Virus record (IMG/VR): IMGVR_UViG_3300013902_000267
Strand: one strand, 5' to 3'
Source of the DNA: a virus
Lineage: Duplodnaviria > Heunggongvirae > Uroviricota > Caudoviricetes
Length of the DNA: 64,000 nucleotides
The translations under genes were made by a program, and so were the position numbers. Below are positions 33-32,739 of this stretch, one piece after another; position 1 is the first letter of the stretch, and each line of letters begins with the position of its first letter. The notes under the pieces were generated by a model. That model saw nothing but the letters and a program-made list of their open reading frames with translations, made no database searches and was not told the origin of the DNA.

Positions 33-103
33 TGGGATATAATGTAATGGTAACATGGAATACTCTGAATGTTCTCTTACTGGTTCGAATCCGGTTATCC
101 CAA
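33..103 (+). tRNA. tRNA-Gln (anticodon CTG)
   Basis: Manual cloverleaf. Acceptor TGGGATA/TATCCCA is a perfect 7 bp. D-stem ATGT/ACAT. Anticodon stem GAATA/TGTTC (one G-U pair), loop CTCTGAA. T-arm ACTGG-TTCGAAT-CCGGT. Discriminator A. 71 nt. Confidence 0.8.
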
Positions 104-163
104 CATATTCGTAATTTTTATTTTTTATTTTTTTTATTTTTAAAGGATTTATACATAAAGAGA

Positions 164-1712: not shown

Positions 1713-2396
1713 ATGAAACATTACGATTCAATAGATAATATAAAATATAATACTGAATTAGTAGGAGAACAAGTATGGGCATTCAATAAATTAGATGGTC
1801 AGAATTTTTGTGCTAAATATTCTGTAAAGAAAAAGGAATTTACAAATTTTGGTTCAAGAAAATGTATGGTAGATGAGACATCAGAACAATTTGGTGATGC
1901 TGTACGTTATTTTAAATCACATAATTATTCATCTATATTAAGTAATATAGTTGAAAAACATAGAGTAAAGAAAGATATATTTTGTGGTGTTGATGAAATT
2001 ACATTTTTCTTCGAATGGTATGGAGAACATAGTTTTGCAGGATTTCATTCTGAAGAAGATAAAGATAATATGCATCTTGCATTAATTGATGTGTTCATCA
2101 AAAAGAAGGGATATATTGAACCAAAGATATATATGGATCTATTTAGAGATTGTGGAATAGAATTGCCGCAATTAGTTTATACGGGACCATTATCAAATGA
2201 TTTTATTAAAGATATTCAAGAAAATGACTGGACTGAACCAAATTGTAAATTTCCTTATGTAAAGGAAGGTGTTGTAATAAGGAGATCTACTATTTTAAAA
2301 GGACAACGAATGCCTAAAGTAAAAGTTAAAACAAAATGGTGGTTAACTGAATTACATAAAAGATATACAGAAGAAGAATGTAAATTATTAGAGTAA
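1713..2396 (+). CDS. ATP-dependent polynucleotide ligase, RNA-ligase-like (KxDG nucleotidyltransferase)
   Basis: Motif I 'AFNKLDGQN' (KxDG). Motif IV-like 'EGVVIR'. Motif V-like 'KVKVKTK'. 227 aa, minimal ligase size. Confidence 0.55.
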   Translation: MKHYDSIDNIKYNTELVGEQVWAFNKLDGQNFCAKYSVKKKEFTNFGSRKCMVDETSEQFGDAVRYFKSHNYSSILSNIVEKHRVKKDIFCGVDEITFFFEWYGEHSFAGFHSEEDKDNMHLALIDVFIKKKGYIEPKIYMDLFRDCGIELPQLVYTGPLSNDFIKDIQENDWTEPNCKFPYVKEGVVIRRSTILKGQRMPKVKVKTKWWLTELHKRYTEEECKLLE

Positions 2397-2398
2397 TT

Positions 2399-2851
2399 AT
2401 GACAACAGGTGAATTAGACGAAATTGTAAAAGATATTATTAATATTTTTGGTAAACATATAAAGCTTGCAAGTTTATCAGAAAAATCATATGCAACAGGA
2501 CATGAAAATTATTATGATATAGTGTTTGAGAATACTACATCATTTACTTCACGAATGTTCGGTTATCAATATAGAAAGTTCCTTAATAATCTTGCAAGTT
2601 TAACTAATGGTGAAACAAGAAAAACAAATTCATATAAAGGATTTGTATATTATTGGTTTCCTGGATTTATTTACAAGAAAAATAATTTAAGAATTGAATT
2701 TGGAAGGAAAGGTTGGAATAGACATAGTGGTGATGATTCAACTACATGTTTTTATATGACGACTAATAACAAATATATTATTGAAGAAATTGTTAATAAT
2801 ATATTAAGAGATAGAGATATACGTATTTTAAAGAAGAATGATTATGAATAA
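2399..2851 (+). CDS. Hypothetical protein (possibly an accessory domain of the adjacent ligase)
   Basis: 150-aa ORF lying between the ligase and the HisG-like gene. Confidence 0.4.
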   Translation: MTTGELDEIVKDIINIFGKHIKLASLSEKSYATGHENYYDIVFENTTSFTSRMFGYQYRKFLNNLASLTNGETRKTNSYKGFVYYWFPGFIYKKNNLRIEFGRKGWNRHSGDDSTTCFYMTTNNKYIIEEIVNNILRDRDIRILKKNDYE

Positions 2852-3491
2852 TAAACCAACATTAGTTGTTCCAAAAGGCAGACTATATAAAGGAATTAAA
2901 CATATGTTTAATTTATGTAATATTGATATGCCTGATGAGAATACTAGACAATATTATTTCCCTGATTGGAGTGATGATTGTGCATTATTTATAGCAAAAC
3001 CTAAAGCAATACCAGAATTAATTGCAAGTAAATTCTGTGAATTCAGTATGTGCGGATATGATATTATAAAGAATAGTGAATATGAAAATGATATAGAGCT
3101 CATTAAACACACAGGACTAAATAGAGTAAAAGTATGTTTAGCTTCACGATATAATATTGATGAATTGTGTCATATGAATAAACCAGTTATTTGTGCCACA
3201 GAATTTGATGTGTTAGCAAATCATTATTTTACAAAATTAGGAATTCCACATTATATATTAAATACAGCAGGTTCAACAGAAGGATATATTGATATTGGTG
3301 CAGATTGTATTATTGATGTTGTAGAAACAGGGAAAACACTTAAAGAAAATAATATTAATATATTAGATACACTGATTGATACTGATACATGTATATTTGA
3401 ACATGCATCATTAATGGATGCAATGTTACCATCAAATATACAAATAATTTATGATCAATGGATTAATAAGACATGGGAAACGAGAATGTAA
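2838..3491 (+). CDS. hisG: ATP phosphoribosyltransferase-like protein (HisG short form)
   Basis: N-terminal 'PTLVVPKGRLYKG' matches HisG 'L-I-A-x-PKGRL'. PRPP-binding signature 'DVVETGKTLKEN' matches HisG 'DLVSTGxTL'. 217 aa. Confidence 0.65.
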   Translation: MIMNNKPTLVVPKGRLYKGIKHMFNLCNIDMPDENTRQYYFPDWSDDCALFIAKPKAIPELIASKFCEFSMCGYDIIKNSEYENDIELIKHTGLNRVKVCLASRYNIDELCHMNKPVICATEFDVLANHYFTKLGIPHYILNTAGSTEGYIDIGADCIIDVVETGKTLKENNINILDTLIDTDTCIFEHASLMDAMLPSNIQIIYDQWINKTWETRM

Positions 3492-3934
3492 AATATATAG
3501 TAGAATTTGATGGTAATGATGGCACAGGAAAAACTTATACGATAAAAGTATTATCAAAAGTTTTTTCTAACTGTATTTTTATAGATAGAGGATTATTCAG
3601 TAAAGCAACATTGCTATCAGACGAAAATGATGAAATGTATAAGTATATTGATGATAATATTGATATGAATAGAATTTATATTATATTGGATGATTATCCA
3701 GAACATTGTCAAATGCTTATAAAAAGAAGAGGAGATTCTATTGAAGAGAAATATCATACAATAGAAGATTTAGAGTATTATCGTAAACAATTTACAAACT
3801 TATATGGTTATTGTTGTAAAAAGAATTATGATAATGTTTATTTAGTTACACGATTATTACCAGATCATGTTCAGGTAATGATTGATATTATTAAGAAATT
3901 TACTAATTTTAATAAGGAAAATAATAATGAGTAA
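3473..3934 (+). CDS. P-loop nucleoside monophosphate kinase-like protein (thymidylate/dNMP kinase family)
   Basis: 'IVEFDGNDGTGKTY' matches the 'IVFEGxDGSGKTT' kinase P-loop. 153 aa. Confidence 0.5.
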   Translation: MGNENVKYIVEFDGNDGTGKTYTIKVLSKVFSNCIFIDRGLFSKATLLSDENDEMYKYIDDNIDMNRIYIILDDYPEHCQMLIKRRGDSIEEKYHTIEDLEYYRKQFTNLYGYCCKKNYDNVYLVTRLLPDHVQVMIDIIKKFTNFNKENNNE

Positions 3935-4577
3935 AATAATTATTGGTACCAGTAATCCAGGTAAGATTAGAGAAATTGCATCTATTCTTTCACCATTAGG
4001 ATATGAGATTGAACCGCATGCATTGGATGTTGATGAAACAGGAAAGACTATTAAAGATAATGCTATTATAAAAGCAAAAGCATATAGTAATGTATTTCCA
4101 GATACTTATGTTATTGCAGAAGATAGTGGATTAGTCGTTCCTAAATTGAATAATCTTCCTGGTCCGTATTCAGCAAGATTTCATGAAATTACAATAGATG
4201 ATAATTTGAATGTTATAAATGTTCCACATGAAGAATTTACTACGGATAAATCTGAACATGATAAACTTAATAATGAGAAGTTGTTGAAGTATATTAAAGA
4301 TATTCCGTTTGATGAGCGTGCAGCATATTTTGAAGTATGTTTTGTCATTGCAAAGAATGGAATTATTCAAGAAACATTTAGTGGTTATTCATATGGTTAT
4401 ATAGCAGATGAATTACGTGGAACAAATGGATTTGGTTATGATCCATTGTTTATTGGTGAGAATACATTTGGTAAGACATATGCAGAACTAGATTCTGCAA
4501 GAAAGAATTTAAAGAGTCACAGAAAGCAAGCATTGAAACAATTGGGCCTTTGGGTTTCACAGAATATAGAGAATTAA
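3927..4577 (+). CDS. Non-canonical purine NTP pyrophosphatase (Ham1/RdgB/ITPase family)
   Basis: 'MSKIIIGTSNPGKIREI' is a classic Ham1 N-terminus. The ORF track starts at 3882; the ATG at 3927 is the likely start. Confidence 0.7.
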   Translation: MSKIIIGTSNPGKIREIASILSPLGYEIEPHALDVDETGKTIKDNAIIKAKAYSNVFPDTYVIAEDSGLVVPKLNNLPGPYSARFHEITIDDNLNVINVPHEEFTTDKSEHDKLNNEKLLKYIKDIPFDERAAYFEVCFVIAKNGIIQETFSGYSYGYIADELRGTNGFGYDPLFIGENTFGKTYAELDSARKNLKSHRKQALKQLGLWVSQNIEN

Positions 4578-4583
4578 TAATAT

Positions 4584-5075
4584 ATGAAGAAATTTATTTT
4601 TCCAGGTTCATTTGATCCTTTTACAAATGGGCATAAAGCAATAGTAGATCAGACATATAAATTGTGTGATGAATTTATTATAGCATTAGCGACAAACTTA
4701 AAGAAAGGAGAAGGACTTATTAAACGTCCTGAGCGTATTAAGTTAATTAAAGAGATTTTTAAAGATTATCCGAATGTAAAGGTAATTGATATGACAGATA
4801 CCTTGATTTCTGATTATTGTAAAAAGAATGGAGTTTCTTATATTGTTAGAGGTATCAGAAATTCGGAAGACTTTACATATGAAAAATCATTGGCAGCTAC
4901 TAACCATTATTTGGCAGGTGTAGAAACAATGTTGGTAATGGGTTTTTGCGAACCATATAATATTGATATTTCATCTACATTCGTTAGAGAATTGGTACAT
5001 TATAAATTACCTATTGGTGAGTTTGTTCCACCAGTTGTTGAACAATATATTAAAGATAATAATTTAACATGGTAA
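4584..5075 (+). CDS. Cytidylyltransferase-fold nucleotidyltransferase, PPAT (CoaD)-like; NMNAT-like activity not excluded
   Basis: 'FPGSFDPFTNGH' is the (T/H)xGH motif. C-terminal 'ISSTFVREL...FVPPVV' resembles PPAT. 163 aa. Confidence 0.6.
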   Translation: MKKFIFPGSFDPFTNGHKAIVDQTYKLCDEFIIALATNLKKGEGLIKRPERIKLIKEIFKDYPNVKVIDMTDTLISDYCKKNGVSYIVRGIRNSEDFTYEKSLAATNHYLAGVETMLVMGFCEPYNIDISSTFVRELVHYKLPIGEFVPPVVEQYIKDNNLTW

Positions 5076-5938
5076 ATAAGATTCAAGAAGAAGATTTAAA
5101 AGCAGTTGAGTATTGTAAAACTGTATTATATCCTAAATGGAATATCAAAGATTTGTATTCTATAGATTTTGATACATTTAGAAAAATGCCGTTGGTTGTA
5201 GAAGGTGAAAGTAAAGAGATACGTGCATTGGATGATGATTATTGTATCATTTATTTTAAACCTACAATTTATTCATTTACATATAATAGAACTGGTATTG
5301 TAGAAGGAAGTAATATTCCACGTGTTCATGTAAGTAAAGTATTGTGTGAGTTACTTAAAGAAAATGGTATTAAACATGCATATCTAGATTATGGTGATGA
5401 ATTTGTATTAGCACGCATAATTAAAGATACACCTAATATTGAAGTTGTTGTAAAAGCAAATCATACAGGTACAAGTAAACATAGATATTTTGGTATGGGT
5501 AAATCACATGTAAGAATGTCACATCCATATTATTCGGGAATGAAAATTAAAGACATGGAACCATATCCAGCACCTATTGTAAGATTTGATTGGCGAAATC
5601 CATTTTGGGAACCAAATACACATAAGATGTTAGCTGATGAAGTTATGTGCGATGATCAAGCAGATTATTATATTGATGTTAAGAAAGCAAAGAAAACTGC
5701 AGCACTAACATTCAGTGTATTAAGTGATTTTCTTGCAAGTAAAGATATTGTTATTTATGATTTGTGTTTGTTTATATCAGAAGATGGTGAAACAGTATAT
5801 GGAGAAATTTCACCAGATTGTGGAAGATATAGACATTATGATTTAGGAAGTCTTGATAAGGATGTATGGCGTGCAGGAGGTTCATCAGATCAGGTATTGG
5901 AGAAGTGGAATTTACTGTATAAAATGATTACACAATAA
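5069..5938 (+). CDS. SAICAR-synthetase (PurC)-like ATP-dependent ligase
   Basis: 'LVVEGESKEIRALDDDYCIIYFKPT' resembles PurC 'LYRGKAKTVY..DLLVLEF'. C-terminal 'GEISPDCGRYRHYD' resembles PurC 'DEFSPDGSRLWD'. Confidence 0.5.
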   Translation: MVNKIQEEDLKAVEYCKTVLYPKWNIKDLYSIDFDTFRKMPLVVEGESKEIRALDDDYCIIYFKPTIYSFTYNRTGIVEGSNIPRVHVSKVLCELLKENGIKHAYLDYGDEFVLARIIKDTPNIEVVVKANHTGTSKHRYFGMGKSHVRMSHPYYSGMKIKDMEPYPAPIVRFDWRNPFWEPNTHKMLADEVMCDDQADYYIDVKKAKKTAALTFSVLSDFLASKDIVIYDLCLFISEDGETVYGEISPDCGRYRHYDLGSLDKDVWRAGGSSDQVLEKWNLLYKMITQ

Positions 5939-5940
5939 TT

Positions 5941-6177
5941 ATGAGAAAATACGAATGTGAGATTGAAGATTATCATGGACATTTCTTTCACCATCGGTTT
6001 GAAGCAAACGATGATAATGAAGCGTTGGATAAAGCAAATGACCATGGTTATAGATATTATGCTAATGATGATACTTTATATTATGTAGAAGGAGATTATG
6101 TTGATTATAGTAATATAAGTACAGATCATTATAAAGAGAATATAAAGAAGTACCATCAAATATGGACTTCAATTTAA
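5941..6177 (+). CDS. Hypothetical protein (His/Tyr/Asp-rich)
   Basis: 78-aa ORF followed by a strong terminator. Confidence 0.4.
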   Translation: MRKYECEIEDYHGHFFHHRFEANDDNEALDKANDHGYRYYANDDTLYYVEGDYVDYSNISTDHYKENIKKYHQIWTSI

Positions 6178-6189
6178 ATAGTATATTTA

Positions 6190-6225
6190 AAAGTCACTAA
6201 AATAAAAACTTTAGTGACTTTTTCT
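6190..6225 (+). terminator. Rho-independent terminator (AAAGTCACTAAA - loop - TTTAGTGACTTT, then a T-run)
   Basis: Perfect 12-bp stem read directly, followed by TTTCTATT. Confidence 0.7.
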
Positions 6226-10269: not shown

Positions 10270-10863
10270 ATGCCAACAATGATGCCATTAATGGATAAAG
10301 ATACCGTAAGATATATAACATAGAATATTACACCAGAAGAAACTAAATATGTAGCTGATATAAAATCTACTATTGATGATACAAAGTGTGAACCAGAGAA
10401 ATGTGATGATGTTATATATCTTACTAAGATTATCGCTTTTTATACTAAATTTACAAATCTTGCAAATACAACACCTAATAATCAATATAAGATGCATATT
10501 CAAGATTTTATGTGGAGATTACAGCAATATAAGGAAGATATATTTGAAGTTGTTCAATCTATCATAGGAGTTTTAAATGGTTCCGATATTACAAAGATTG
10601 AATTACCTATAAGTGATAATCCATTAGAGATTATAAATGAATTAAAACAATGTGTACAAAATTGGTTTACACTTCATACAGATGATATTGAATATGAAGG
10701 CGCTAGATCATTAACTAGTTCATTCCTTTCTGTAATTCATAAGTTTGTTTACCTTTTTAGATTAGATAAATGCTCGACTGCTGATTATGGTCAGGATTAG
10801 AAATTACCAAATCCTGATGCAGGATTATGTGGAGTAAACGGAGCATATGCAGTAAATTTTTAA
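10270..10863 (+). CDS. Hypothetical protein; TAG-recoded (2 in-frame TAG)
   Basis: Continuous frame from ATG 10270 to TAA 10861-10863. The ORF track shows only the fragment 10492..10800 because it treats TAG as a stop. Confidence 0.55.
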
Positions 10864-10874
10864 TATGATATAAT

Positions 10875-11828
10875 ATGAATCCTATAAATCAACCATCATC
10901 TAGAAATTACAATATCAATGGTAGTACAAGAAATAATGGGTTCTTATATAAAATTATGCCTTTATCATTTAATTTACAATAGAGAGGAAATGATTTTAAA
11001 GTTAAAAAATACAATAAGTGTAAATTTAATATCGGCGATAATGTAAGAGGATTGTGTTTGGAAGATAAGAAAGAACATTCAGGACGAATTACTAATATCT
11101 TATACAGTACAAATACAGAAGTTCCTTATTTAGTTTATATCATTGATAATAAGACAAGATAGAAATTATCATTAAACTTTAGTTCGCTAGAATTTAATAA
11201 TTCTAAAATTGATGAGTCATATGGGTTTGATGTTGCCATTAAACTATATGAAACATTAAATAAAGATAAATATAATAAATTAAAACTTTAGAATAGAATG
11301 GTAAATTCAATAAAAGTTTTACTTGAAGAATATTTTAATAATACAGAACAAATGGATATGTTGTTAAATGATTATTAGAAACAACAGAAAAAAGCAAGTA
11401 AAGCATATGATTCACGTCAAGAGTTTTTAAAATCAATATTAGGTAAAGTAACATATAACAAATATCAAAATAAAGGTATGTTTGCTCCTATTCCTTTATC
11501 TGCATTGCATTTAACATTCGAAGATTTTTATTATTTGTTTCCAGAGAATAATATTAAGATGAGACCAATGGATAATGAAGCAGGTGTAGAGAAAGTAAAG
11601 AAACTTATTGCACGTATTAATAAGGAATATCCTAATAACGGTATTAGATTGTTAGATAATGGTGTTTCTTATACATTAAGTTCAAATCTTGTATTTAAGA
11701 GATTAGATAATATAATTGATTTTTTATAGATAATTCAGAAAAATGTTTTGAGGATTTCATCTGATAAAACAAATCCAACAGTTAATTGGAAGGCGATGAT
11801 AAAGAAATTCAGAAATTATCTACGATAA
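10875..11828 (+). CDS. Hypothetical protein; TAG-recoded (5 in-frame TAG)
   Basis: Continuous frame from ATG 10875 to TAA 11826-11828. Contains the track fragment 11478..11729. Confidence 0.5.
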
Positions 11829-11861
11829 TCAAATAAGTAAAATAAATTAATTAAAATAATA

Positions 11862-12365
11862 ATGATGATAACTACAAACATAAGTAACATTCCAGACGCA
11901 TGGGATGGTTATTTTGAACAATAGGTTAATAAGTTCACGCCTTCTGTTGAAGTTCCTAAGCCTTGGAGACATCCGGTTGGACCTGAACCTATGATGAAAC
12001 CTTGCAAGCATCATAAGACATAGTTTATTATAAAACATAAACCTGCTACATTACCAAATGGACCAGAACATGGATGTAACGTATGTGATCCATATCATCC
12101 AAATTTGTATGATCATATGAATATGCCTTGTTTTAATCAACATAAACCATATGGTATCGCTACTAATAGATTAATGAGTCCATTTGAAGATGATGATAGA
12201 CCTGATTGGCATGAATTCCATGCTAAGAATCGTAAACCTATGATGTTTGAAGAAGTTATAGATGAAAATGGTTGTTCACATGGTCCTCATGGAACAATTA
12301 ATGTTAGACCAGTTGAACCTGCTGATGATGAAGCAGATGAGATTGAAGATGAAGTAACAGTTTAA
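11862..12365 (+). CDS. Hypothetical Cys/His-containing protein; TAG-recoded (2 TAG)
   Basis: ATG 11862 to TAA. Contains the track fragment 12105..12365. Confidence 0.5.
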
Positions 12366-12398
12366 AATGAAAATTAATTAATGATAGAAATATAAATT

Positions 12399-13166
12399 AT
12401 GCAAACATCAAGTAAAGTTTCATACGATAATTGGAGTGATTGGAATTTAGGAAATTAGATAATGAATATAAGACCTGTTGGTACATATTGCTTCTGTGAA
12501 CATCATCATTGTCACCATCATCATCCTTGTGATTGTGTAGATTGTGAATTCTCAGAATCATATATTAAACCAGAATCTTGTTGTCATCATCATCCGCATC
12601 CACCAGTACCATGTCCACCACATCATTGTGATTGTCATGATCCACATTTATTTCCAATTGATCAAGATAATGATGGATTTGTAGAAAGTGATATGATTCA
12701 TAAACATCCAGAACCATATATTCCAGAACCATTACCAGGAGAAATTGGAGATAAAGAAGATGATACAACAAATAGAATGGAAGTAGGTGACGAAGTTGAT
12801 GATATTGATGATTCAACAAATTATTATGGTTCAAATTTAGTTGTAAGTATTCCTAAAGAAATTCAACCAGTAGAAACATCAGATGAAATTGATTCTATTT
12901 TAGATGAAGATACACAAGATGATATGGTAACTACTGATGAAGATGGTTATCATACATTAAGTGATGAAGTTCCAGCAGAAGAAGATAATTGGGAAACATC
13001 AAAAATGATTGATACTAATACATCTAAAATTATTGAAGAAACACCAGTTCCTGAATAGGAATTAAAGGAAGTTGAAACTATTCCATCTGTAGAATCAGTA
13101 GAAGAGAAACCCACACGTGGACGTAGAAGAGTTAATCGTGGAGGAAGACGTAAAAAAGAAGAATAA
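12399..13166 (+). CDS. His/Cys-rich (metal-binding-like) protein with a basic C-terminal tail; TAG-recoded
   Basis: 'CEHHHCHHHHPCDC...CCHHHPHPP...HHCDCHD' His/Cys clusters. Reading through TAG at 13056 extends to '...RGRRRVNRGGRRKKEE' and TAA at 13164-13166. Confidence 0.5.
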
Positions 13167-13180
13167 TTTTTATTCTATAT

Positions 13181-13227
13181 ATAATAGAAAAGAGACTTAG
13201 AACAAAAATACTAAGTCTCTTTTTATT
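13181..13227 (+). terminator. Rho-independent terminator (AAAGAGACTTAG / CTAAGTCTCTTT, T-run)
   Basis: Perfect 12-bp stem followed by TTTATTTTTT. Confidence 0.7.
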
Positions 13228-13262
13228 TTTTATAAACATTCACATTTAATTTTACTATAAAA

Positions 13263-13889
13263 TTAAAGCATACATTCATCCCACCAGTCAGCGCGGAAAG
13301 TCATATCACAAGACATCAAATCTGTACTGTCATAATTAAGTGTAGGACCAGGTACACCTGTTGTAGGGAAAATGTAATAGAATACCCATTGCCAATATGG
13401 ATTACCAGCACGATCTTGCATAGTAATAGTCATTGATGGCGCCACGTAATCTTTCTTAAGGCCTTCACGACCTGTAAGAGGATCATAAATAAGGTCAACC
13501 CATTCACGAAGGAACTTATATGTGTAGTTCTCAGGTGAACCGTTATCATATGAAAGGTTAAGGTTAAAGTGTAATGTCAAGTCGACATTAGTTCTATCTG
13601 GTTTTGCACCAGCGAATGAACGTTGTGCAAATTTATACTTTTGCTCTGTTGCGTTAGCACCAAATGAAGTAGAAATCTGACCAACACTTTGTACACCTTC
13701 AAGAATAATATTCAAACGTTCATCATCTGTTGTATCAACCATACCTTGAGGACAACTTAATTGAACAGTAAACAAGTTCAAATATATAGGTTCCCATAAT
13801 GAGGTAGATACACGGCTATTTCTAAAATGTGATAATCCTAACAAACCTGGAGATTTCTTAGGTAAAGTAGGTCCATTTGTTACTGCCAT
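13263..13889 (-). CDS. Tail tube protein, T4 gp19 family
   Basis: 'NRVSTSLWEPIYLNLFTVQLS' resembles T4 gp19 'PNLFQVEIS'. C-terminal 'DMTFRADWWDE' resembles gp19 'LALDYWE'. 208 aa. Implies a contractile tail. Confidence 0.55.
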   Translation of the reverse strand: MAVTNGPTLPKKSPGLLGLSHFRNSRVSTSLWEPIYLNLFTVQLSCPQGMVDTTDDERLNIILEGVQSVGQISTSFGANATEQKYKFAQRSFAGAKPDRTNVDLTLHFNLNLSYDNGSPENYTYKFLREWVDLIYDPLTGREGLKKDYVAPSMTITMQDRAGNPYWQWVFYYIFPTTGVPGPTLNYDSTDLMSCDMTFRADWWDECML

Positions 13890-14042
13890 ATTATTATTAA
13901 AGTATATTTTATTTTATTTATCTGTGAAAAATAGGTAGATTAAATGTAGACAAAAATATTTTTTTATAGTATAAATTAAGAATTTAAAAAAAATAGAGAT
14001 AAATAATTAAGTTCAAAAAATAAATTTTAAATAAAGAAGAAA

Positions 14043-14216
14043 ATGAAGAAGATTTTATTTGTACTTGCTGCTGTTGTAACAATGAGTTTCGCTTCTTGTG
14101 GTAACAAGACTACTACATGTGGAACAGCAAATGATTCAACTGCAACAGATACTACAGTTGTTGATTCTACAGCTACAGATTCAACTGCAGCTGATTCTAC
14201 AGTTTGTCCTATGTAA
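14043..14216 (+). CDS. Small lipoprotein (signal peptide plus lipobox Cys) with a DSTAT-type tandem repeat
   Basis: MKKILFVLAAVVTMSFASC-GNK, a Bacteroidota-type lipoprotein signal. Preferred over the antisense track ORF 14027..14221. Confidence 0.55.
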   Translation: MKKILFVLAAVVTMSFASCGNKTTTCGTANDSTATDTTVVDSTATDSTAADSTVCPM

Positions 14217-14301
14217 TTCATAAGACAAACTTTATTTTAGAGAAGATTATTGTGTAATTAAAATATAACCTAATATAAGGTTTATATTAAACTAATTTTA
14301 G

Positions 14302-14350
14302 AGATATACTAAATATATTCATTTATATTTGGTATATCTTTTTTTATTTA
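14302..14350 (+). terminator. Rho-independent terminator (AGATATAC ... GTATATCT, then TTTTTTATTT)
   Basis: 8-bp stem with a long loop and a T-run. Confidence 0.45.
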
Positions 14351-14389
14351 ATAAATATTTAAAATTTATTTAACTGAATTATATAATAT

Positions 14390-15286
14390 ATGGCAACATG
14401 GAATCAAGCAGTTCAATAGATGGGTAAGTTTTATCAATAGAATATACATACATATCAAGGAGGTAAATCAGGACATGCGACAGGTGCTAGACGTTCTTAT
14501 TCATGTCCTTTAGTTGGACACAGTGTAGGAGATGATTGTTCAGGATTTACTTCTGCGTGTTTATAGTTATTTGGAGCATTTCCAGGCTCATATATTGTTT
14601 CATCTAGTGGTTTTGCATCAACATCTGGTGCAACAGCCGCATATTTAAGAAAAGCTGGATTTTCACCGTTAAGATATATTAGTTACTCATCTTTATAGCC
14701 ATATGATATTGTTGCAAGAAATGGACATGTTGAAGTATTTTGTGGTATGAAGGGAAGTTCACCAATGTCATACGCATGGGGAAATATTCATGATGGCATA
14801 AATGGACATGTTGGTATGCCATGTTGGTTTTCTAAACAGTCTTATTCTATTGTATGGAGAAATTCTGGTGTAAGTATAGATACACCATTAGATTTTTCTT
14901 CAGTGTCTGGCGGTTCATTACAACAATAGATGAATTCTGGATATGGTACAGGTGGAACATTAAATGGGTAGACAGGTTCATAGTTTAATTATACATCAAA
15001 TACATATCCTGTTCATGATGAATATGAAACTATTTCATCTGGTAATGGTTCAAAATCTGTATTTGAAATTGTAGGTGAAAATACATTACGTATGGCATAT
15101 ACAAATTCATCATATATACAACAATTAGATTCATCTAATTATTAGTTAAAAAATACTCGTATATATTCAACTAATGATGCATCTATAATATTAGATGAAT
15201 TATCAATACCATTAGATCCATTTGATACGAGTGTTAATACATTAGATTCAAGTGTTATTGATAATTCAGTTAAAACAAATAATTAA
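14390..15286 (+). CDS. NlpC/P60-family peptidoglycan endopeptidase (virion- or tail-associated lysin); TAG-recoded (8 TAG)
   Basis: Catalytic-Cys signature 'GDDCSGFTSAC' (NlpC/P60 'DCSGF'). One frame from ATG 14390 to TAA 15284-15286, interrupted only by TAG. C-terminal module shared with the next gene. Confidence 0.65.
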
Positions 15287-15292
15287 TAATAT

Positions 15293-16333
15293 ATGGCTGG
15301 CAAGAAATTACTTAATGGTGTTTATATAACAAAGAAAATAATGGAAGCTTTTAATCTTAAAGATTATCAGGCTGCTGGATTTGCTGGTTGTTTTATGGAA
15401 GAATCTGGTTGTGATCCCGGTGCATATAATGCCGCTGAAAAATCTGGAAGATTTAAAGGTTCATCAGCGAACGGTGCAGGTTATGGTGCAGGTCTTGCAT
15501 AGTGGTCTAATGCATGGAAACGGTAGATATAGAGATAGTTTAATAATTCAAGGCCTATAGAAAATTGGACATTAGATTAGCAAATAGCTATTGTTACTAA
15601 AGGCTGTTCATAGTCTTTTGTAAATTTATTAAGAAAATGTACATCAGTAGGTTAGTCTACAGATATTGTTTTAAGAGGATATGAAAATGGTTCTGCAGGT
15701 AAAGGTACTAAATTACGTTCATAGCAATCAATGAAAGCATATACGTGGTGTAAGACATCATATATGGCAGATGGTAGTAGACGTACGTTTAGTGATGGAT
15801 ATATTGGTGCATTAACATGTAGAACATCATGGGCTAATGCAGTTTTAAGTAAAATGGGATCAGTTAATCTTGCAGATTTATCCGGATTAGGAACAGAAGT
15901 AGGTGGAGGATTAGGTGATGATGGCTCTTTTGGTTCTACTGGTGGAGGAGGAACTGGAGATTCAAACGCATATCCTGTTCATGATGAATATGAAACATTT
16001 ACTGGACAAGGTGGAAATATATTTGCAAATGCAAAAGATAATGCATTTCAATTAGCTGCTGATGCATCAAAATCTAAATTTTCATCTAAAGATTCTGAAG
16101 CATCTAAGCATACACGTATATATTCTACAAATGATTCTTGTATTGTTTTAGATGAATTAAGTATACCATATGATCCAAATGATCCAACTATTGAATATGC
16201 AAATCAAAATGTAAAAGCGGAAGATGTTAAGAAAGATACATCTACTAATGCAAAAGATAATACTAAAGACACATCTACAAATAAAAGTACAAATAAATCT
16301 AATACTACAAAAAAGACAACTAAATCTAAATAA
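15293..16333 (+). CDS. Phage tail lysozyme-like protein (Phage_lysozyme2 family); TAG-recoded (about 9 TAG)
   Basis: 'AAGFAGCFMEESGCDPGAYNAAE...GAGYGAGLA-Q-WS' matches the tail-lysozyme family signature. The family has Q where this gene has TAG. Confidence 0.6.
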
Positions 16334-16335
16334 TT

Positions 16336-19300
16336 ATGATTACAATAAATGGTATTAAATATTTAAAAAAAGGAGAGACATCAAATGATAAAACAATAAC
16401 GCATTATTATTATACAGATTCATTAAAGAAAACTTATAACATAATATATAATGGCAAAAATGCTAAATTATATACAGATACTAAAGTATACAAGGATTCT
16501 GATACAAATTAGATTATAAAGAAAGATTTCTTTAATTATACTATTGATTACGGAACAGGAAAATATGGAGGTGTTTGTTATTCAAAATCAGATGAAGATA
16601 AGATATTAGGTATGGTCGATTCTGATAGTAATATAGATGGAAGTTCTAATGGAGATTCTACAACTGATGGTGATAATAGTTCAAACTCTGGAAATAATTC
16701 TGATGATTCTGATAATAATGACGGTAATAGTTCAAATAATGGTAATGGAACAGGTGATGATACAAATGATTCTGATAGTAATGGATCTGGTAATAAAGAT
16801 ACTAATAATAAAGGTATATTTGAGGATTCAATGGGTAATAAAGATAAAGATAATCCTCGAAGTTCATTACCATTAGGAGCAGATATTAAAGATCCTGATG
16901 TTACAGGTTTTAGCATTGATGAAGTAACAGCGCCACATCCACGAGAAAACAATTGGTATAATAAAGGTTCTGTTTGTCCAATAATACGTATAAATGATCA
17001 TTATTTTTCTGATACTGAAATATAGCATTTTTCTATGGAAACTGGATATTATAAGAATTTTTATGATTATCAAGTATACCAAGCACCGTTAACAGGTGTT
17101 TTACCAACTATGAGGCTTATTGTTACAACAACAGATCCAGGTTTATTAAAGAAAGATTTTATAAAGCAAGGTGATAGATGTAATGTATTTTTCTAGAGTA
17201 ATCATTCTATGATTAAATCTATGAGATGTGATTTCAGAATTACTAATGTTGTAACAGATTAGTTAGATTAGACGTAGTATTAGAAATATCAAACATAGAT
17301 TATAACAGGTGAACTTTATGTCCCGGATTTAAGAAATGAAGAAACTCGTTATAATTTTAATGGTTCATCAAGAGATGCTATGATGGATTTGGCAAAGAGA
17401 TTAAGATTAAGTTTTTTCTTTTGTGATCCTGATGATACTAATGATAAAATGGTTTGGTGTAATTGTAAAACACCTGAAATGTTCATTCATGATTTAACAA
17501 CGCATGCATGGAAAAATTCTATATCATTCTTTGAATCTTGGATTGATCCACGTTATGGATTATCTTTTATGAATATTAATAGATTATTAGGTGAAGATGG
17601 ATTTGATGAATCAATAGATATGACATTCTGGACTAATACATTTATTAATAATAGATCAGTTGATGGAAAATCTGCAAATGAAACAGATACAGAATAGAAA
17701 AATAGTACACATATTCAAACAAAATGTTTTACTAATATTATTAATGATAATGAATCTGCTACAGTATATCATGTTAATAGTTGGAGATTGGTTAATAATG
17801 CATAGGAAATACAAGATTTTGTTGGATTGAATTGTAAAATGCAATATTCATCTGTTAATCCTGGATTATTATCAGATGAGAATAATAATCCAAATTATAG
17901 TGTAGAATTTTCATTATGTTTAAATAGAACTAAATTTGATCCAACTAAAAAGGATAATGATTTTTATGTATTATTAGGACCTGGTAGAAATATGACATAT
18001 GCGAGTGGCGATGCCGCCATGGGAACATCTGAAACACAATCTTCAAATAAAAATGAACCTGAACAAGTTACAAATCAAATGTCTGATGGTGATGCAGATG
18101 CAATGGATAGTACAGGAAATAATATGATGTCTTCTGGTAATACACATCAATTTTATGAAGTTGCTTATGAACATAATATGAGAAATTTACTATAGTTATA
18201 GAAATAGTATTTACTTGTAGAATTAAATGGTGCAAACTTAAGTATTGTTCGCGGTGAAAAAATGCCTATTGTATTAATGGATTTAAATAAAGCAGAACAA
18301 GCTATTAGAACTAGTCAAGCACGTACAAAAATAGAAGAATGTATGTATGAAGCTGAATCCGGTTGGTATATAATTGATGGTATTGAATGGGTTTTTGATC
18401 CTGATAATGATTAGGGACAAGGTACAAACTGGCGAACTAATGTGAAATTAGTTAGAAGAGAATGGCCAATACCATCAAAAATAAAAGATGCAAATGGTAA
18501 TACTGTTTCAAAAAATGTCGCAAATAGTATTGTTTTGGTAGATATTGGAAACGGACAATAGATAAGAATGGCTTATTATGATGCAGTAAAGAAATATAGT
18601 TAGGAAATAAAAAATGGTGATGTCAAAATATTAGGTGGAACAACATCTGAAGACGCAGTTGTAATTGGTCAGAAAAAACAAAACATATCTTCAACTAATG
18701 ATGAATAGAATTCAGATGATCTAGAAGAAAGTGGTAAATTATATACTGCAAATGGTGTAGAGACTGTAAGTGCAGTTAATTTTAATCTTGATTTAATGGA
18801 TCAATATGTAAAAGATTCTGATTATGTTGGTTAGTCTACAATACCTTTAACTGGTTTGAAAGATTTTATGAAAAATATTTATAAAACAATATTATCTGAA
18901 TCCGATAATAAATGTAAATTGGTATCTGGAAGACGGTGGGCAGTAGATGAATATGGTAATAAGGTAAATGGAAATGCGTTTGTAAAGAAATATGATTATT
19001 ATAAATGTATGAATGCTATAGGTGAAGTAATGTATTTTAAAAAAAATAATTCAAGTCATTTATATGGTGAAGCTATTGATATTATTAATAATGGTATAGA
19101 TTTTACTGAACTTATGACTAATGTAATAATGAAATCACCTGCGATATTAAAATTATTTTATGATAATGGTGTTTCTGCTTATATAGAGCAAGCAAAGGAT
19201 GATACAGGCGCAACTACTAAACATTACCATATTGGAACTGATACAATAAAACAACGAGAATTTTGGGAATCTGTTAAAGCTATATTAGGTTCTGATATGA

Positions 19301-19425
19301 TTCCAGGAACTATGATAACATTTATGAACTATATGACAAAAAATACATAGAGAACAACAGAATTCTCTGTAAGTAGTGAAATAGACGAAAACACATTACA
19401 AAAAAATAGTAATAATGATAAATGA
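16336..19425 (+). CDS. Large tail fibre/baseplate-like protein (about 1029 aa) with an N-terminal G/S/D/N-rich low-complexity region and a C-terminal peptidase-M15 domain; TAG-recoded (more than 20 TAG)
   Basis: One frame from ATG 16336 to TGA 19423-19425. Track fragments 16612, 17380, 17827 and 18856 are all in the same frame. M15 motifs 'SHLYGEAIDI' and 'HYHIG' near the C-terminus. Confidence 0.6.
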
Positions 19426-19467: not shown

Positions 19468-20433
19468 TTAAATATGTTTTCTTTTTAATATTTGAATAAA
19501 TTCATCTTCAGTTATTTGAGCACCTGCTGCACCTTCATGTCCTCCACCATGATAATATTCTTGAAGATATTTACCACAATGGAATTCATGTGTATCTGTA
19601 GGATTATACAATGAAATTGCCCACATACCATCAGGTAATCTCTTAAATACAATACCGTTTTTGATTTTATCTTTACATGTTTTAAATATCTGTGAATTTG
19701 TTGGTTTCTGAATAAACAAAGCACATGCAGATCGATTATCAAATCCTACAGTCCATGTAAAATCACCATATGAATTAATGAGGTTCTTATTGTTTCTATC
19801 AATAATCTCTGATTCTAACTTACCTAATTCTTTAAGTTTCCCTAGTTCACATGCTAATTCTTCTGGTTTTGCTTGATATATTATATAATATACATGATTA
19901 ATAATTTCACTTACATTTAAATCATATTTATTATTAACACCAATGTTTACATATCTACAAAAATCAAAATTAATATTCTCCGCATCATAACTCCAGCTAT
20001 CCCATGCAGACAATACTTTAAACAAATCCGGTATTCTTCCAATAAAATTATACAAATAGCTAAAAGCATTATATAATGCAGAATGATCGATTGTCCTTAA
20101 ACCCTGAATATCGTCAAAATGTAATTCTTTTGAACTATTAATCATAGGCGCATGATGGTCAAACCAATATAGTTTATCACCAAAATGTTTTTTCAGTTTA
20201 AGCATTGTTTCTGCTGTATCAAACGAAATATCTGATATATAAACATAATCATATACACCTATAATATCATTTTGAATATTTAAGTTCTCCATCCCATTAT
20301 AATCTTCACCTAATAGTGTGATCATATTTGGATGTATTCCTTTTTCAATTACAAGAAAATTATATATGATAGCCATCGAAAATAAACCATCATTATCTTC
20401 CTTGTGATATATAATTAAATATTTGTCATCCAT
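19468..20433 (-). CDS. DHH-DHHA1 family phosphoesterase (NrnA/RecJ-like nanoRNase or oligonucleotide phosphodiesterase)
   Basis: Motif I 'YHKEDNDG'. Motif III 'FDHHAP'. DHHA1 'GGGHEGAAG'. 321 aa. Confidence 0.65.
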   Translation of the reverse strand: MDDKYLIIYHKEDNDGLFSMAIIYNFLVIEKGIHPNMITLLGEDYNGMENLNIQNDIIGVYDYVYISDISFDTAETMLKLKKHFGDKLYWFDHHAPMINSSKELHFDDIQGLRTIDHSALYNAFSYLYNFIGRIPDLFKVLSAWDSWSYDAENINFDFCRYVNIGVNNKYDLNVSEIINHVYYIIYQAKPEELACELGKLKELGKLESEIIDRNNKNLINSYGDFTWTVGFDNRSACALFIQKPTNSQIFKTCKDKIKNGIVFKRLPDGMWAISLYNPTDTHEFHCGKYLQEYYHGGGHEGAAGAQITEDEFIQILKRKHI

Positions 20434-29758: not shown

Positions 29759-29761
29759 TAT

Positions 29762-30016
29762 TTACCAAAATCCCCTTTTATAATCTTCATATTCTACATA
29801 ACATCTTTCTACATTCCTAAATAGAATTTTAAAATAACGTGGAAGTTCATCATACATTAATGCTAAACATTGATCTACACTTAATGGATCAACTATATAT
29901 TCATGTCCAGATAATTCCCAACATTTAGTTATAAGTTTTGCTTCACTTTCAACATAATCACACATAAATGGAGCAATCCATATATTACCAGAGTTCTTAA
30001 TTGTTACAATTCTCAT
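29762..30016 (-). CDS. Hypothetical protein
   Basis: 84-aa ORF in a tightly packed minus-strand operon. Confidence 0.35.
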   Translation of the reverse strand: MRIVTIKNSGNIWIAPFMCDYVESEAKLITKCWELSGHEYIVDPLSVDQCLALMYDELPRYFKILFRNVERCYVEYEDYKRGFW

Positions 30017-30018
30017 TA

Positions 30019-30822: not shown

Positions 30823-30827
30823 AATGA

Positions 30828-31280: not shown

Positions 31281-31282
31281 TT

Positions 31283-31477: not shown

Positions 31478-31598
31478 TATCGTTTTAATTTAAGTTATTA
31501 ATATACATATATTACTTTAAAAATATTGATTTGTTTACTCATATAAAATAAAAAATCTCTAATAATCTTTCAAAATTATTAGAGATAAAAATATAAAA

Positions 31599-32393: not shown

Positions 32394-32418
32394 ATAAAAT
32401 TATATTTTAAATAGTTAA

Positions 32419-32670: not shown

Positions 32671-32739
32671 AGTTTTAATTTTTATAATTATAATTTTATA
32701 TAATTATTTATTACATTTGTCTACTTTTAATATAAAGAA

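What the first reader, a model, noticed from the sequence alone, without database searches (positions are those of the whole stretch)
1713..5938. Unusual nucleotide-enzyme island: HisG-like PRTase, PurC-like ligase, PPAT-like nucleotidyltransferase, P-loop kinase, Ham1 and a KxDG ligase in one operon
Tightly overlapping standard-code genes encode these enzymes. They do not form a known phage nucleotide-salvage set: there is no dUTPase, thymidylate synthase or RNR here. A HisG-type ATP phosphoribosyltransferase and a SAICAR-synthetase-fold ligase are rare in phages. The same enzyme folds were noted by Anantharaman, Iyer and Aravind (2012) in bacterial Ter (TelA/TerD) stress-response neighbourhoods, where a PRTase, an ATP-grasp or PurC-like ligase and HAD or metallophosphatases were predicted to make a nucleoside-like metabolite. 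This window also encodes a TelA-like protein, two metallophosphoesterases, a HAD phosphatase and a CorC/CNNM transporter. The phage may therefore carry a Ter-like metabolite pathway, a DNA- or nucleotide-modification pathway, or an NAD/ADPR-related one.
Basis: inference. Interest (0 to 1): 0.7.

Follow-up and report, generated by a model that had tools for sequence, protein, structure and literature searches.

The report
Histidine-pathway branch cassette in a megaphage
This Lak megaphage operon contains a four-gene cassette (HisG, a small kinase, an ITP-cleaning enzyme and an unusual PurC-like enzyme) that is also found, often fused into one protein with histidine-pathway enzymes, in other huge phages, giant viruses and tiny symbiotic bacteria. 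It most likely diverts the first steps of histidine synthesis into a coformycin-type nucleotide that blocks adenine deaminases.

Summary
Window 1713-5938 of Prevotella megaphage Lak-B7/B8 holds seven tightly packed same-strand genes with the predicted domains.

The Ter-like interpretation is not supported. Only four genes form a conserved unit: HisG, a mini thymidylate-kinase-like kinase, Ham1 and the PurC-like protein.

The PurC-like protein belongs to a small, sharply delimited family of 361 clusters among 1.84 billion representatives. In this family the canonical PurC D-F-K-x-E strand is replaced by D-x-C-x-F/M.

In huge phages, giant viruses, CPR bacteria, predatory bacteria and others, the family sits next to, or is fused with, HisG, HisA, HisI/HisE, the kinase and Ham1. 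Examples are HisG-Kin-PurCl and the 1200-1340 aa Kin-PurCl-HisA-HisIE-HisG proteins, one from Bodo saltans virus.

The only known SAICAR-synthetase homologues fed by HisG-HisE-HisI-HisA are CofB/PenC of coformycin/pentostatin biosynthesis.

I therefore infer a coformycin-type diazepine nucleotide, kept phosphorylated. Ham1 would clear ITP. This fits a counter-measure to ATP/AMP deamination such as RADAR or Cad1.

Unproven: the chemistry, the missing reductase and orthology to CofB. The PPAT-like gene, the RNA ligase and the 150-aa ORF are Lak-specific additions.

The parts
2838..3491 (+). Short-form HisG (ATP phosphoribosyltransferase), 217 aa, without the C-terminal regulatory domain. Core cassette gene.
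   Evidence: PF01634 at 2e-24; TIGR00070 at 106.6 bits against a cut-off of 75.75. The DVVETGKTL PRPP-loop is visible in the sequence. In relatives it is fused to the kinase and/or the PurC-like domain.
3473..3934 (+). Mini thymidylate-kinase-like P-loop NMP kinase, 153 aa. Core cassette gene.
   Evidence: P-loop GNDGTGKT and a DRG motif. The family profile hits thymidylate kinase 2pbr at 4e-11. The domain is fused to HisG, to PurCl or to Ham1 in many relatives. In some fusions an adenylate-kinase domain replaces it.
3927..4577 (+). Ham1/RdgB-type non-canonical purine NTP pyrophosphatase (ITPase), 216 aa from the ATG at 3927. A TTG at 3882 is an alternative start. Core cassette gene.
   Evidence: PF01725 at 6e-48; TIGR00042 at 157.5 bits against 145.35. 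Relatives carry PurCl-Ham1, PurCl-Ham1-Kin and Kin-Ham1 fusions. It is present in 30 of 63 loci.
5069..5938 (+). PurC-like enzyme (PurCl), 289 aa. It has the SAICAR-synthetase fold but is not canonical PurC. It is the signature gene of the cassette.
   Evidence: - PF01259 at 39.6 bits; TIGR00081 only 26.7 bits against 189.9.
- AF2 model pLDDT 84.8; Foldseek finds PurC structures with TM 0.80 and 25% identity.
- 55-76% identical to homologues in other phages and bacteria.
- The family has only 361 clusters among 1.84e9 representatives.
- D-x-C-x-F replaces the PurC D-F-K-x-E strand.
4584..5075 (+). CoaD/PPAT-like HIGH-motif nucleotidyltransferase, 163 aa. It is a Lak-specific insertion between Ham1 and PurCl.
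   Evidence: - TIGR01510 at 132.5 bits against 103.3; NadD TIGR00482 only 44.5 bits against 112.
- phrog_29208 at 6e-21.
- Found only in loci L050-L054.
- The same position holds PurA in the 660-kb Lak relative and EndoV in L055 and L068.
1713..2396 (+). RNA ligase-like protein (KxDG), 227 aa. First gene of the array, Lak-specific.
   Evidence: PF09414 at 2e-8; phrog_548 RNA ligase at 3e-12. Present only in Lak loci and absent from L067-L069.
2399..2851 (+). 150-aa ORF of unknown function, Lak-specific.
   Evidence: Only weak Cas6-like hits (Pfam 0.011; PADLOC 1.8e-4). The AF2 model has pLDDT 56.6 and is not usable. It is 78% identical in a diverged Lak.
5941..6177 (+). 78-aa ORF that closes the array, conserved in Lak phages.
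   Evidence: 72-100% identical in L050-L054. No family hit.
6189..6222 (+). Terminator-like hairpin with a 13-bp stem, probably the end of the transcription unit.
   Evidence: Five such sites were found in 7.2 kb against 1.2 expected. None lies on the + strand inside 1713-6177.

Best explanation
The island is an early-expressible operon (no recoded TAG codons) built around a conserved four-gene cassette: HisG, a mini NMP kinase, Ham1 and a PurC-like enzyme (PurCl).

Proposed mechanism:
1. HisG condenses ATP (or dATP) with PRPP. The enzyme class is shown; the substrate is inferred.
2. HisE, HisI and HisA convert the product to the aminoketone PRFAR. These enzymes are encoded in the cassette of most relatives. 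The ~540-kb Lak phages have lost them, so the Prevotella host would supply them (inferred).
3. PurCl acts on that intermediate as CofB/PenC does in coformycin/pentostatin biosynthesis. It would give an 8-ketocoformycin-type 1,3-diazepine ribotide (inferred from context and precedent).
4. The kinase keeps the product in the cell as a di- or triphosphate (inferred).
5. Ham1 hydrolyses (d)ITP. The family is shown; the role is inferred.

The biological purpose would be to block and repair adenine-nucleotide deamination. That deamination could come from ATP-deaminase defences such as RADAR RdrB and CRISPR Cad1, or from host AMP/adenosine deaminases.

The PPAT-like enzyme, the RNA ligase and the 150-aa ORF are Lak-specific passengers in the same transcript.
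For: Shown by tool results:
1. Domain identities and thresholds.
2. PurCl is not canonical PurC. It scores far below the purC equivalog cut-off. An HMM of the family retrieves only 361 clusters at 50% identity from 1.84e9 proteins. The PurC D-F-K-x-E strand is D-x-C-x-F/M in 119/119, 104/104 and 85/125 members, and D-x-K-x-E occurs in 0, 0 and 1.
3. Gene context in 63 non-redundant loci, same strand within 5 kb of PurCl:
   - kinase 38, HisG 31, Ham1 30, HisA and HisIE 17, PurA 7;
   - at least one of the five partners in 47 loci.
4. Fusions among the top 150 family representatives:
   - Kin-PurCl, about 35;
   - HisG-Kin-PurCl, about 20;
   - Kin-PurCl-HisA-HisIE-HisG of 1200-1340 aa, about 12;
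   - HisA-HisIE-HisG-Kin-PurCl, 2;
   - PurCl-Ham1-Kin;
   - adenylate kinase-HisG-PurCl-Ham1.
   One megafusion is Bodo saltans virus ATZ80961.1.
5. The 660-kb Lak relative has the full set HisIE, HisA, HisG-Kin, Ham1, PurA, PurCl. The 15 Lak-A/B/C genomes have no HisA or HisIE.
6. HisF and HisH were not seen in any Pfam-annotated neighbourhood. They were not searched for across all loci. The pathway therefore appears to stop at the HisA product.
7. Occasional neighbours all concern inosine. PurA is in 7 loci and endonuclease V is in two phages.

From the literature:
- Coformycin, pentostatin and adechlorin clusters recruit a HisG homologue (PenA/AdeC), a HisA homologue (AdeK) and a SAICAR-synthetase homologue (PenC/AdeA), and share early steps with histidine synthesis (PMC12648386, PMC13055916, PMC11592144).
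- RADAR and Cad1 defend by converting (d)ATP to (d)ITP with ADA-type active sites (PMC9994260, PMC11645235).

From memory (Ren et al. 2020 PNAS, not readable here): CofB converts the HisA product to 8-ketocoformycin-5'-phosphate.
Against: - No SDR reductase like CofA/PenB was seen in the neighbourhoods that were annotated. No systematic SDR search was run. The product would stay at the 8-keto stage unless a host enzyme reduces it.
- Orthology to CofB/PenC is untested. No actinobacterial protein appears among the 233 listed homologues. The family motifs found no Streptomyces genome.
- A kinase and an NTP pyrophosphatase in one cassette look opposed if both act on the product.
- CPR bacteria with minimal genomes keeping a 'secondary' pathway is odd and fits nucleotide housekeeping better.
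- Dependence of Lak on host HisIE/HisA is assumed, not checked.
- No deaminase defence has been looked for in Prevotella.
Confidence: 0.5

Rival explanations
1. Purine interconversion module. PurCl turns the opened-ring histidine intermediate (ProFAR/PRFAR) back into an ordinary nucleotide such as IMP, or into AICAR/ZMP and then ZTP. The cassette would then be an ATP-to-IMP route or an alarmone route. Ham1, PurA and the kinase would handle the inosine or Z nucleotides.
For: - Ham1, PurA and EndoV all act on hypoxanthine nucleotides.
- The cassette sits in CPR bacteria with reduced genomes, next to PurA in 6 CPR loci.
- No reductase was seen in the annotated neighbourhoods.
- Adenylate-kinase fusions occur.
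Against: - HisA is conserved in the cassette. It is unnecessary if only ring re-closure to IMP is needed.
- Five enzymes plus PRPP would replace what one deaminase does.
- An AT-rich phage (27% GC) and giant viruses have no obvious need to drain ATP into IMP.
- No enzyme of this fold is known to do these reactions.
Confidence: 0.2
2. Non-canonical nucleotide for nucleic acids. The product is phosphorylated by the kinase and incorporated into phage DNA or RNA as a protective modification. Ham1 would remove a competing NTP, by analogy with PurZ/MazZ/DatZ of Z-genome phages.
For: - The cassette combines a dedicated NMP kinase with an NTP pyrophosphatase.
- A PurA homologue sits in the 660-kb Lak cassette.
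Against: - The same cassette is chromosomal in many bacteria and one archaeon.
- No dedicated polymerase or glycosylase is linked to it.
- Lak DNA was assembled from ordinary sequencing without reported anomalies. This is general knowledge and was not tested here.
Confidence: 0.08
3. Unlinked auxiliary metabolic genes. HisG boosts host histidine synthesis, PurC boosts purine synthesis, CoaD boosts CoA, and Ham1 is ordinary house-cleaning. They would be neighbours by chance.
For: HisG, Ham1 and CoaD pass NCBIfam equivalog cut-offs. Huge phages are reported to carry purine and pyrimidine genes similar to those of CPR bacteria (PMC7162821).
Against: - PurCl fails the purC equivalog cut-off and lacks the PurC K-x-E strand.
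- Repeated domain fusions join HisG, Kin, PurCl, Ham1 and HisA/I/E.
- Linkage is conserved across phyla and virus realms.
Confidence: 0.05
4. Ter-like (TelA/TerD-linked) nucleoside-metabolite pathway, or an NAD/ADPR pathway.
For: - TelA, CNNM, two Metallophos genes and a HAD gene are in the same window.
- One distant PurC-like gene neighbours TelA in Anaeromicropila (L046).
- NAMPT lies at 55328-56911, and the PPAT-like enzyme has weak NMNAT similarity.
Against: - Those genes are 23-50 kb away on the opposite strand.
- None of the Lak TelA, CNNM, Metallophos or NAMPT genes has a homologue in the other 62 loci.
- The Ter module uses nucleobase PRTases, not HisG (PMC7824862).
- The PPAT-like gene is absent from all non-Lak cassettes.
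Confidence: 0.03

Closest known systems
Coformycin / pentostatin / adechlorin biosynthetic clusters of actinomycetes (cof, pen, ade, mac). Components: HisG homologue PenA/AdeC, HisA homologue AdeK, SAICAR-synthetase homologue CofB/PenC/AdeA, SDR CofA/PenB.
   Same: - A HisG homologue is recruited together with a divergent SAICAR-synthetase-fold enzyme, and often HisA.
- The pathway branches from the early histidine route.
- In both, the SAICAR-synthetase homologue is not a normal PurC.
   Different: - No SDR reductase, exporter or protege-nucleoside genes were seen in the annotated neighbourhoods.
- A mini NMP kinase and Ham1 are core parts instead, which suggests an intracellular nucleotide rather than a secreted nucleoside.
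- The carriers are viruses, CPR bacteria and predatory bacteria, not actinomycetes.
- Sequence orthology to CofB/PenC could not be tested.
Cordyceps militaris Cns3 (pentostatin/cordycepin cluster). From memory of Xia et al. 2017: an N-terminal nucleoside/nucleotide kinase fused to a C-terminal HisG domain.
   Same: The kinase-HisG domain order matches the bacterial cassette protein (L003 9028-10014). The kinase-HisG linkage is seen throughout this family.
   Different: No PurC-like gene is reported in the cns cluster. Cns3 is fungal. In the window the kinase and HisG are separate overlapping genes in the order HisG then kinase.
Canonical histidine operon (HisG, HisE, HisI, HisA, HisH/F, HisB, HisC, HisD).
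   Same: The first four activities are the same protein families. Lak HisG passes the hisG equivalog threshold.
   Different: The later his genes (HisF, HisH, HisB, HisC, HisD) did not appear in the annotated neighbourhoods. The Lak HisG is a short form without a regulatory domain. The pathway continues with PurCl.
Phage NAD+ reconstitution pathways (NARP1/NARP2), known from memory.
   Same: Conceptually the same. The phage carries small-molecule metabolism that undoes a nucleotide-depleting immune effector. The window also carries a NAMPT gene.
   Different: Different enzymes and a different metabolite. Here the target would be adenine-nucleotide deamination, and part of the answer would be an inhibitor rather than resynthesis alone.
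Ter (TelA/TerD) associated nucleoside-like metabolite module.
   Same: Both are predicted nucleotide-derived metabolite pathways with a PRTase and phosphoesterases. A TelA gene is in the window.
   Different: The PRTase class differs (HisG against nucleobase PRTases). There is no TerD, TerB or TerC linkage. Co-occurrence was found in 1 of 63 related loci.

Membership tests
HisG ATP phosphoribosyltransferase (PF01634 / TIGR00070) | Profile score above the curated cut-offs | tested here: met
   PF01634 86.7 bits against 25.5; TIGR00070 106.6 bits against 75.75
HisG ATP phosphoribosyltransferase (PF01634 / TIGR00070) | PRPP-binding loop D-[LIV]-x-x-[ST]-G-x-T-[LM] (PROSITE-type signature, recalled from memory) | tested here: met
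   DVVETGKTL is present in the translation of 2838-3491
HisG ATP phosphoribosyltransferase (PF01634 / TIGR00070) | ATP + PRPP -> PR-ATP activity | not testable with these tools
   Needs an enzyme assay. Some BGC HisG homologues (AdeC, AdeL) do not complement hisG (PMC13055916).
Canonical SAICAR synthetase PurC (TIGR00081) | Equivalog score above the cut-off | tested here: not met
   26.7 bits against 189.9
Canonical SAICAR synthetase PurC (TIGR00081) | D-F-K-[LI]-E active-site strand | tested here: not met
   The window protein has DLCLF where 2yzl and 3u54 have DFKIE and DFKLE. The replacement holds family-wide.
SAICAR_synt fold superfamily (PF01259) | Pfam gathering score and fold | tested here: met
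   39.6 bits against 20. Foldseek top 38 hits are all PurC/PAICS, with TM 0.80 normalised by target length.
CofB/PenC-type diazepine-forming enzymes | SAICAR-synthetase homologue genomically linked to HisG/HisA homologues | tested here: met
CofB/PenC-type diazepine-forming enzymes | Adjacent NADPH-dependent SDR (CofA/PenB) for 8-keto reduction | tested here: not met
   No SDR appears in the neighbourhoods annotated with Pfam or among the recurrent neighbour clusters examined. No dedicated SDR search was run across all loci.
CofB/PenC-type diazepine-forming enzymes | Sequence orthology to CofB/PenC/AdeA | not testable with these tools
- No PDB entry exists.
- No actinobacterial names appear among the listed homologues.
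- The afdb50 library was unavailable.
CofB/PenC-type diazepine-forming enzymes | Conversion of PRFAR to 8-ketocoformycin-5'-phosphate | not testable with these tools
   Biochemistry is required
Ham1/RdgB ITPase (TIGR00042) | Equivalog score above the cut-off | tested here: met
   157.5 bits against 145.35
Pantetheine-phosphate adenylyltransferase CoaD (TIGR01510) | Equivalog score above the cut-off and a T/HxGH motif | tested here: met
   132.5 bits against 103.3. FTNGH is present in the translation.
NMN/NaMN adenylyltransferase (NARP2 partner of NAMPT) | NadD/NMNAT equivalog score | tested here: not met
   TIGR00482 44.5 bits against 112.45. phrog_3462 NMNAT only 1e-7, against phrog_29208 at 6e-21.
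Ter (TelA/TerD) metabolite system | Linkage of the biosynthetic genes to TelA/TerD/TerC/TerB | tested here: not met
   TelA lies about 30 kb away on the opposite strand. Only L046 among the related loci has TelA nearby.
Known anti-phage defence proteins (PADLOC) | Match to a PADLOC model | tested here: not met
   No hit for HisG, Ham1, PPAT or PurCl. The kinase (mads_8, E 0.0014) and the 150-aa ORF (Cas6, E 1.8e-4) have only weak chance-level hits.

The most novel reading that the evidence does not exclude
Huge phages, giant viruses, CPR episymbionts and predatory bacteria share a previously undescribed pathway. It hijacks the first four histidine-pathway steps to make a phosphorylated ring-expanded purine (coformycin-type) nucleotide. 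That nucleotide would be a transition-state inhibitor of ATP/AMP deaminases. Together with Ham1, and in some cases PurA or EndoV, it would neutralise deaminase-based immunity such as RADAR and Cad1. This would be the first virus-encoded biosynthesis of a small-molecule enzyme inhibitor used as counter-defence.
Probability: 0.3. Interest if true: 0.92.

Novelty: new variant of a known kind. Interest (0 to 1): 0.8.

Why it matters
- It would explain a conserved but unannotated gene set found in megaphages, giant viruses such as Bodo saltans virus, and CPR bacteria.
- It would extend coformycin/pentostatin-type chemistry far beyond actinomycetes and fungi.
- It would give a concrete, testable candidate for how viruses resist ATP-to-ITP immune effectors.
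- Even if the product is different, the family is a sharply defined new enzyme whose substrate can be guessed. It is fused to HisG, HisA and HisIE, so it is directly assayable.
- It also shows that the ~540-kb Lak phages rely on host histidine enzymes for a viral pathway.

Tried and rejected
- Reference sequences for CofB/PenC. Ren et al. 2020 (PMC7229688), Xu et al. 2018 (PMC6210108) and Anantharaman et al. 2012 are not held. A direct comparison was therefore impossible.
- PDB. No CofB-like entry exists; sequence and fold searches return only PurC/PAICS.
- AFDB. The afdb50 fold library was unavailable.
- Plasmids. A tblastn of a family member found nothing.
- Third homologue search. It was seeded with the Nostocales member, which sits in a nucleoside-BGC-like context, hoping to reach actinomycete proteins. 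None was named.
- PADLOC and PHROGs. No informative hits for the core genes.
- Literature searches. Searches linking coformycin/pentostatin, HisG or PRA-CH with phages, RADAR or giant viruses found nothing relevant. One search with short terms was wasted.
- The 150-aa ORF. The single-sequence AF2 model has pLDDT 56.6, too poor for a fold search.
- Promoter scan. It is uninformative in 27% GC DNA: 71 sites found against 68 expected.
- An idea that was dropped. I considered that HisG plus the PPAT-like enzyme could cyclise PR-ATP to N1-cADPR. I rejected it because the PPAT-like gene is absent from every non-Lak cassette.

Full report
**What is there**

The window is part of the Prevotella megaphage Lak-B7/B8 genome (100% identity). 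The 4.2-kb island is conserved at 83% nucleotide identity in Lak-A and Lak-C.

They are packed with overlaps of 7-19 nt or gaps of 2-6 nt. All use ATG starts and TAA stops. None contains an in-frame TAG, whereas nearby late-type genes carry up to 19. A terminator-like hairpin follows at 6189-6222. This looks like one transcription unit that can be translated before the phage's stop-codon recoding takes effect.

- RNA ligase, HisG, Ham1 and a CoaD-like nucleotidyltransferase. The last three score above the NCBIfam equivalog cut-offs.
- A small P-loop kinase whose family profile matches thymidylate kinases.
- A protein with the SAICAR-synthetase fold.

**The PurC-like protein is the key**

It reaches the Pfam threshold but scores only 26.7 bits against the purC equivalog cut-off of 189.9. 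An AlphaFold model (pLDDT 84.8) superposes on PurC structures with TM 0.80 but only about 25% identity.

Its homologues, in contrast, are 55-76% identical across phages and very different bacteria. Nineteen diverse members share about 95 invariant residues.

An HMM of the family retrieves only 361 clusters at 50% identity from 1.84 billion representative proteins. The family is therefore small and sharply separated from the huge PurC family.

The PurC strand D-F-K-[IL]-E, seen in the aligned PurC structures 2yzl and 3u54, is D-x-C-x-F/M in essentially all members. D-x-K-x-E is essentially absent. I call this family PurCl.

**Context of PurCl**

I fetched 69 loci from genomes, viral contigs and metagenome assemblies and mapped partner genes with tblastn and home-made HMMs.

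In 63 non-redundant loci, the genes on the same strand within 5 kb of PurCl are:

| Partner | Loci |
|---|---|
| Mini kinase | 38 |
| HisG | 31 |
| Ham1 | 30 |
| HisA and HisI/HisE | 17 |
| HAD phosphatase (a distant subfamily) | 10 |
| Adenylosuccinate synthetase PurA | 7 |

At least one of the five core partners is present in 47 loci.

The typical bacterial arrangement is [HisA-HisI-HisE fusion][HisG][PurCl][Ham1][kinase]. The carriers include:
- CPR bacteria (Saccharibacteria, Parcubacteria lineages);
- Myxococcota, Bdellovibrionota, Oligoflexia, Planctomycetia and Acidobacteriota;
- one Woesearchaeote;
- huge phages of 229-660 kb;
- giant-virus bins.

Domain fusions make the link unambiguous. 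Among the top 150 family representatives there are:
- about 35 Kin-PurCl proteins;
- about 20 HisG-Kin-PurCl proteins;
- about 12 Kin-PurCl-HisA-HisIE-HisG polyproteins of 1200-1340 aa;
- two HisA-HisIE-HisG-Kin-PurCl proteins;
- PurCl-Ham1 and PurCl-Ham1-Kin proteins;
- roughly 900-aa proteins with adenylate kinase-HisG-PurCl-Ham1.

One polyprotein is ATZ80961.1 of Bodo saltans virus.

HisF and HisH were not seen in the Pfam-annotated neighbourhoods, although they were not searched for across all loci.

**What is core and what is Lak-specific**

The PPAT-like gene, the RNA ligase and the 150-aa ORF are found only in the ~540-kb Lak phages.

The 660-kb Lak relative carries [HisIE][HisA][HisG-Kin][Ham1][PurA][PurCl]. 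Gut phages of 229 and 395 kb carry [HisG][Kin-Ham1][endonuclease V][PurCl]. The slot between Ham1 and PurCl is therefore variable, and in the window it holds the PPAT-like gene.

tblastn with three different HisA/HisIE queries finds nothing in the 15 deposited Lak-A/B/C genomes. These phages have lost the middle steps and presumably use the host's enzymes (inference).

**Mechanism**

HisG, HisE, HisI and HisA convert ATP and PRPP to the aminoketone PRFAR. This is established knowledge of the histidine pathway.

The only enzymes of the SAICAR-synthetase fold known to be coupled to that route are CofB, PenC and AdeA of the coformycin, pentostatin and adechlorin clusters. Those clusters also recruit HisG (PenA, AdeC) and HisA (AdeK) homologues (PMC12648386, PMC13055916, PMC11592144).

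From memory of Ren et al. 2020, which is not readable here, CofB cyclises the HisA product to 8-ketocoformycin-5'-phosphate. The reaction releases ammonia and erythronate-4-phosphate and needs ATP only as an activator.

Two observations fit that chemistry better than simple ring re-closure:
- HisA is conserved in the cassette.
- The Lys/Glu pair of the PurC strand is lost while the nucleotide-binding motifs are kept.

I therefore infer that PurCl makes a coformycin-type diazepine ribotide.

The cassette differs from the actinomycete clusters in two ways:
- No reductase, phosphatase or exporter was seen in the annotated neighbourhoods of the main subfamily.
- An NMP kinase and Ham1 are always associated.

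This suggests that the product is kept inside the cell as a nucleotide.

Coformycin-type compounds are transition-state inhibitors of ADA-type deaminases (general knowledge). RADAR RdrB and CRISPR Cad1 are ADA-type enzymes that defend by turning (d)ATP into (d)ITP (PMC9994260, PMC11645235).

Ham1 removes (d)ITP, PurA re-aminates IMP, and endonuclease V removes inosine from nucleic acids. The occasional neighbours share the theme of undoing adenine deamination. Early, standard-code expression in Lak fits a counter-defence or host-takeover role.

**Weak points**

- No dedicated reductase was found.
- Orthology to CofB/PenC could not be tested.
- A kinase plus a pyrophosphatase would be futile if both act on the product.
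- The presence of the cassette in minimal CPR genomes next to PurA fits a purine-interconversion role.

I give the diazepine and deaminase-inhibitor model about 0.5. A different transformation of the same intermediate (IMP, AICAR/ZTP) gets about 0.2. The remaining readings get little.

TelA, CNNM, two metallophosphoesterases and a HAD gene are in the window. They lie 23-55 kb away on the other strand. Their homologues are absent from the related loci, except for one TelA next to a 31%-identical PurC-like gene in Anaeromicropila.

The Ter module is described as using nucleobase PRTases and HAD enzymes (PMC7824862). That survey of 224 jumbo phages mentions neither HisG nor SAICAR synthetase nor Ham1. 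The Ter and NAD/ADPR readings are not supported.

**Novelty**

None of the literature searches I could run links this gene set to phages, giant viruses or CPR bacteria. PADLOC and PHROGs have no models for the core genes.

The cassette is best described as a new variant of the coformycin/pentostatin type of histidine-pathway branch. It has a different accessory set and a very different host range. Its product and role remain to be shown experimentally.

Noticed in passing
window 55328-56911 (-) and 54265-55302 (-): A NAMPT-type nicotinamide phosphoribosyltransferase (PF04095 and NAMPT_N) sits next to a P-loop kinase/NT5C-like protein. This looks like a phage NAD+ salvage or reconstitution set. 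The NMNAT partner was not identified; the PPAT-like gene at 4584-5075 is a weak candidate.
   Followed up: partly
window 46126-46938 (-), 60232-60789 (-), 1713-2396 (+), 19468-20433 (-): RNA-repair-type genes are scattered in the window: a Thg1-like tRNA-His guanylyltransferase, a HAD_SAK_2 'Swiss Army Knife RNA repair' domain, an RNA ligase and a weak DHHA1-domain protein. The 395-kb phage L068 has Tpt1, Metallophos and HAD_SAK_2 next to its cassette.
   Followed up: no
window 29039-40082 (-): A cluster of Metallophos, Band_7/SPFH, TelA (PF05816, 1e-68), a second Metallophos and a CNNM/CorC transporter. It looks like a membrane-stress set and is unrelated by context to the island.
   Followed up: partly
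window 10270-19425 (+) and many - strand genes beyond 22.8 kb: ORFs become long only if TAG is read as sense; 16336-19425 has 19 in-frame TAGs. The island and many other genes have none. The gene strand and the GC skew both switch at about 19.4-20 kb.
   Followed up: partly
window 2399-2851 (+): The 150-aa ORF gives weak Cas6-like hits in two independent libraries (Pfam PF21350 at 0.011; PADLOC Cas6 at 1.8e-4). It sits directly after an RNA ligase, so the two may form an RNA-processing pair.
   Followed up: partly
L046 7872-11479 (Anaeromicropila populeti): A distant PurC-like gene (31% identity) is followed by a HIT/DcpS-like protein and a TelA homologue.
   Followed up: no
L034 3516-11471 (Bradyrhizobium) and L041 4745-13876 (Nostocales HT-58-2): Distant PurCl subfamilies lie in natural-product-like clusters. 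In Bradyrhizobium a PurCl-HAD fusion is flanked by a PhyH dioxygenase, a MetRS paralogue, an aminotransferase and a P450. In Nostocales PurCl is flanked by HD, SAH-hydrolase-like, HAD, GATase, PhoD and MatE exporter genes.
   Followed up: partly
P0284, P0287 (metagenomic proteins): These are formamidase/acetamidase (PF03069)-PurCl fusion proteins, another unexplained architecture of the family.
   Followed up: no
L055 7444-7944 and L068 7491-7988: The endonuclease V homologues inside the phage cassettes are only 165-166 aa and match about 110 of the 198 profile positions. They may be truncated or specialised.
   Followed up: no
window 33-104 (+) and 62193-62266 (-): There are two tRNA genes, tRNA-Gln(CTG) and tRNA-Lys(TTT). 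Neither is a TAG suppressor.
   Followed up: no
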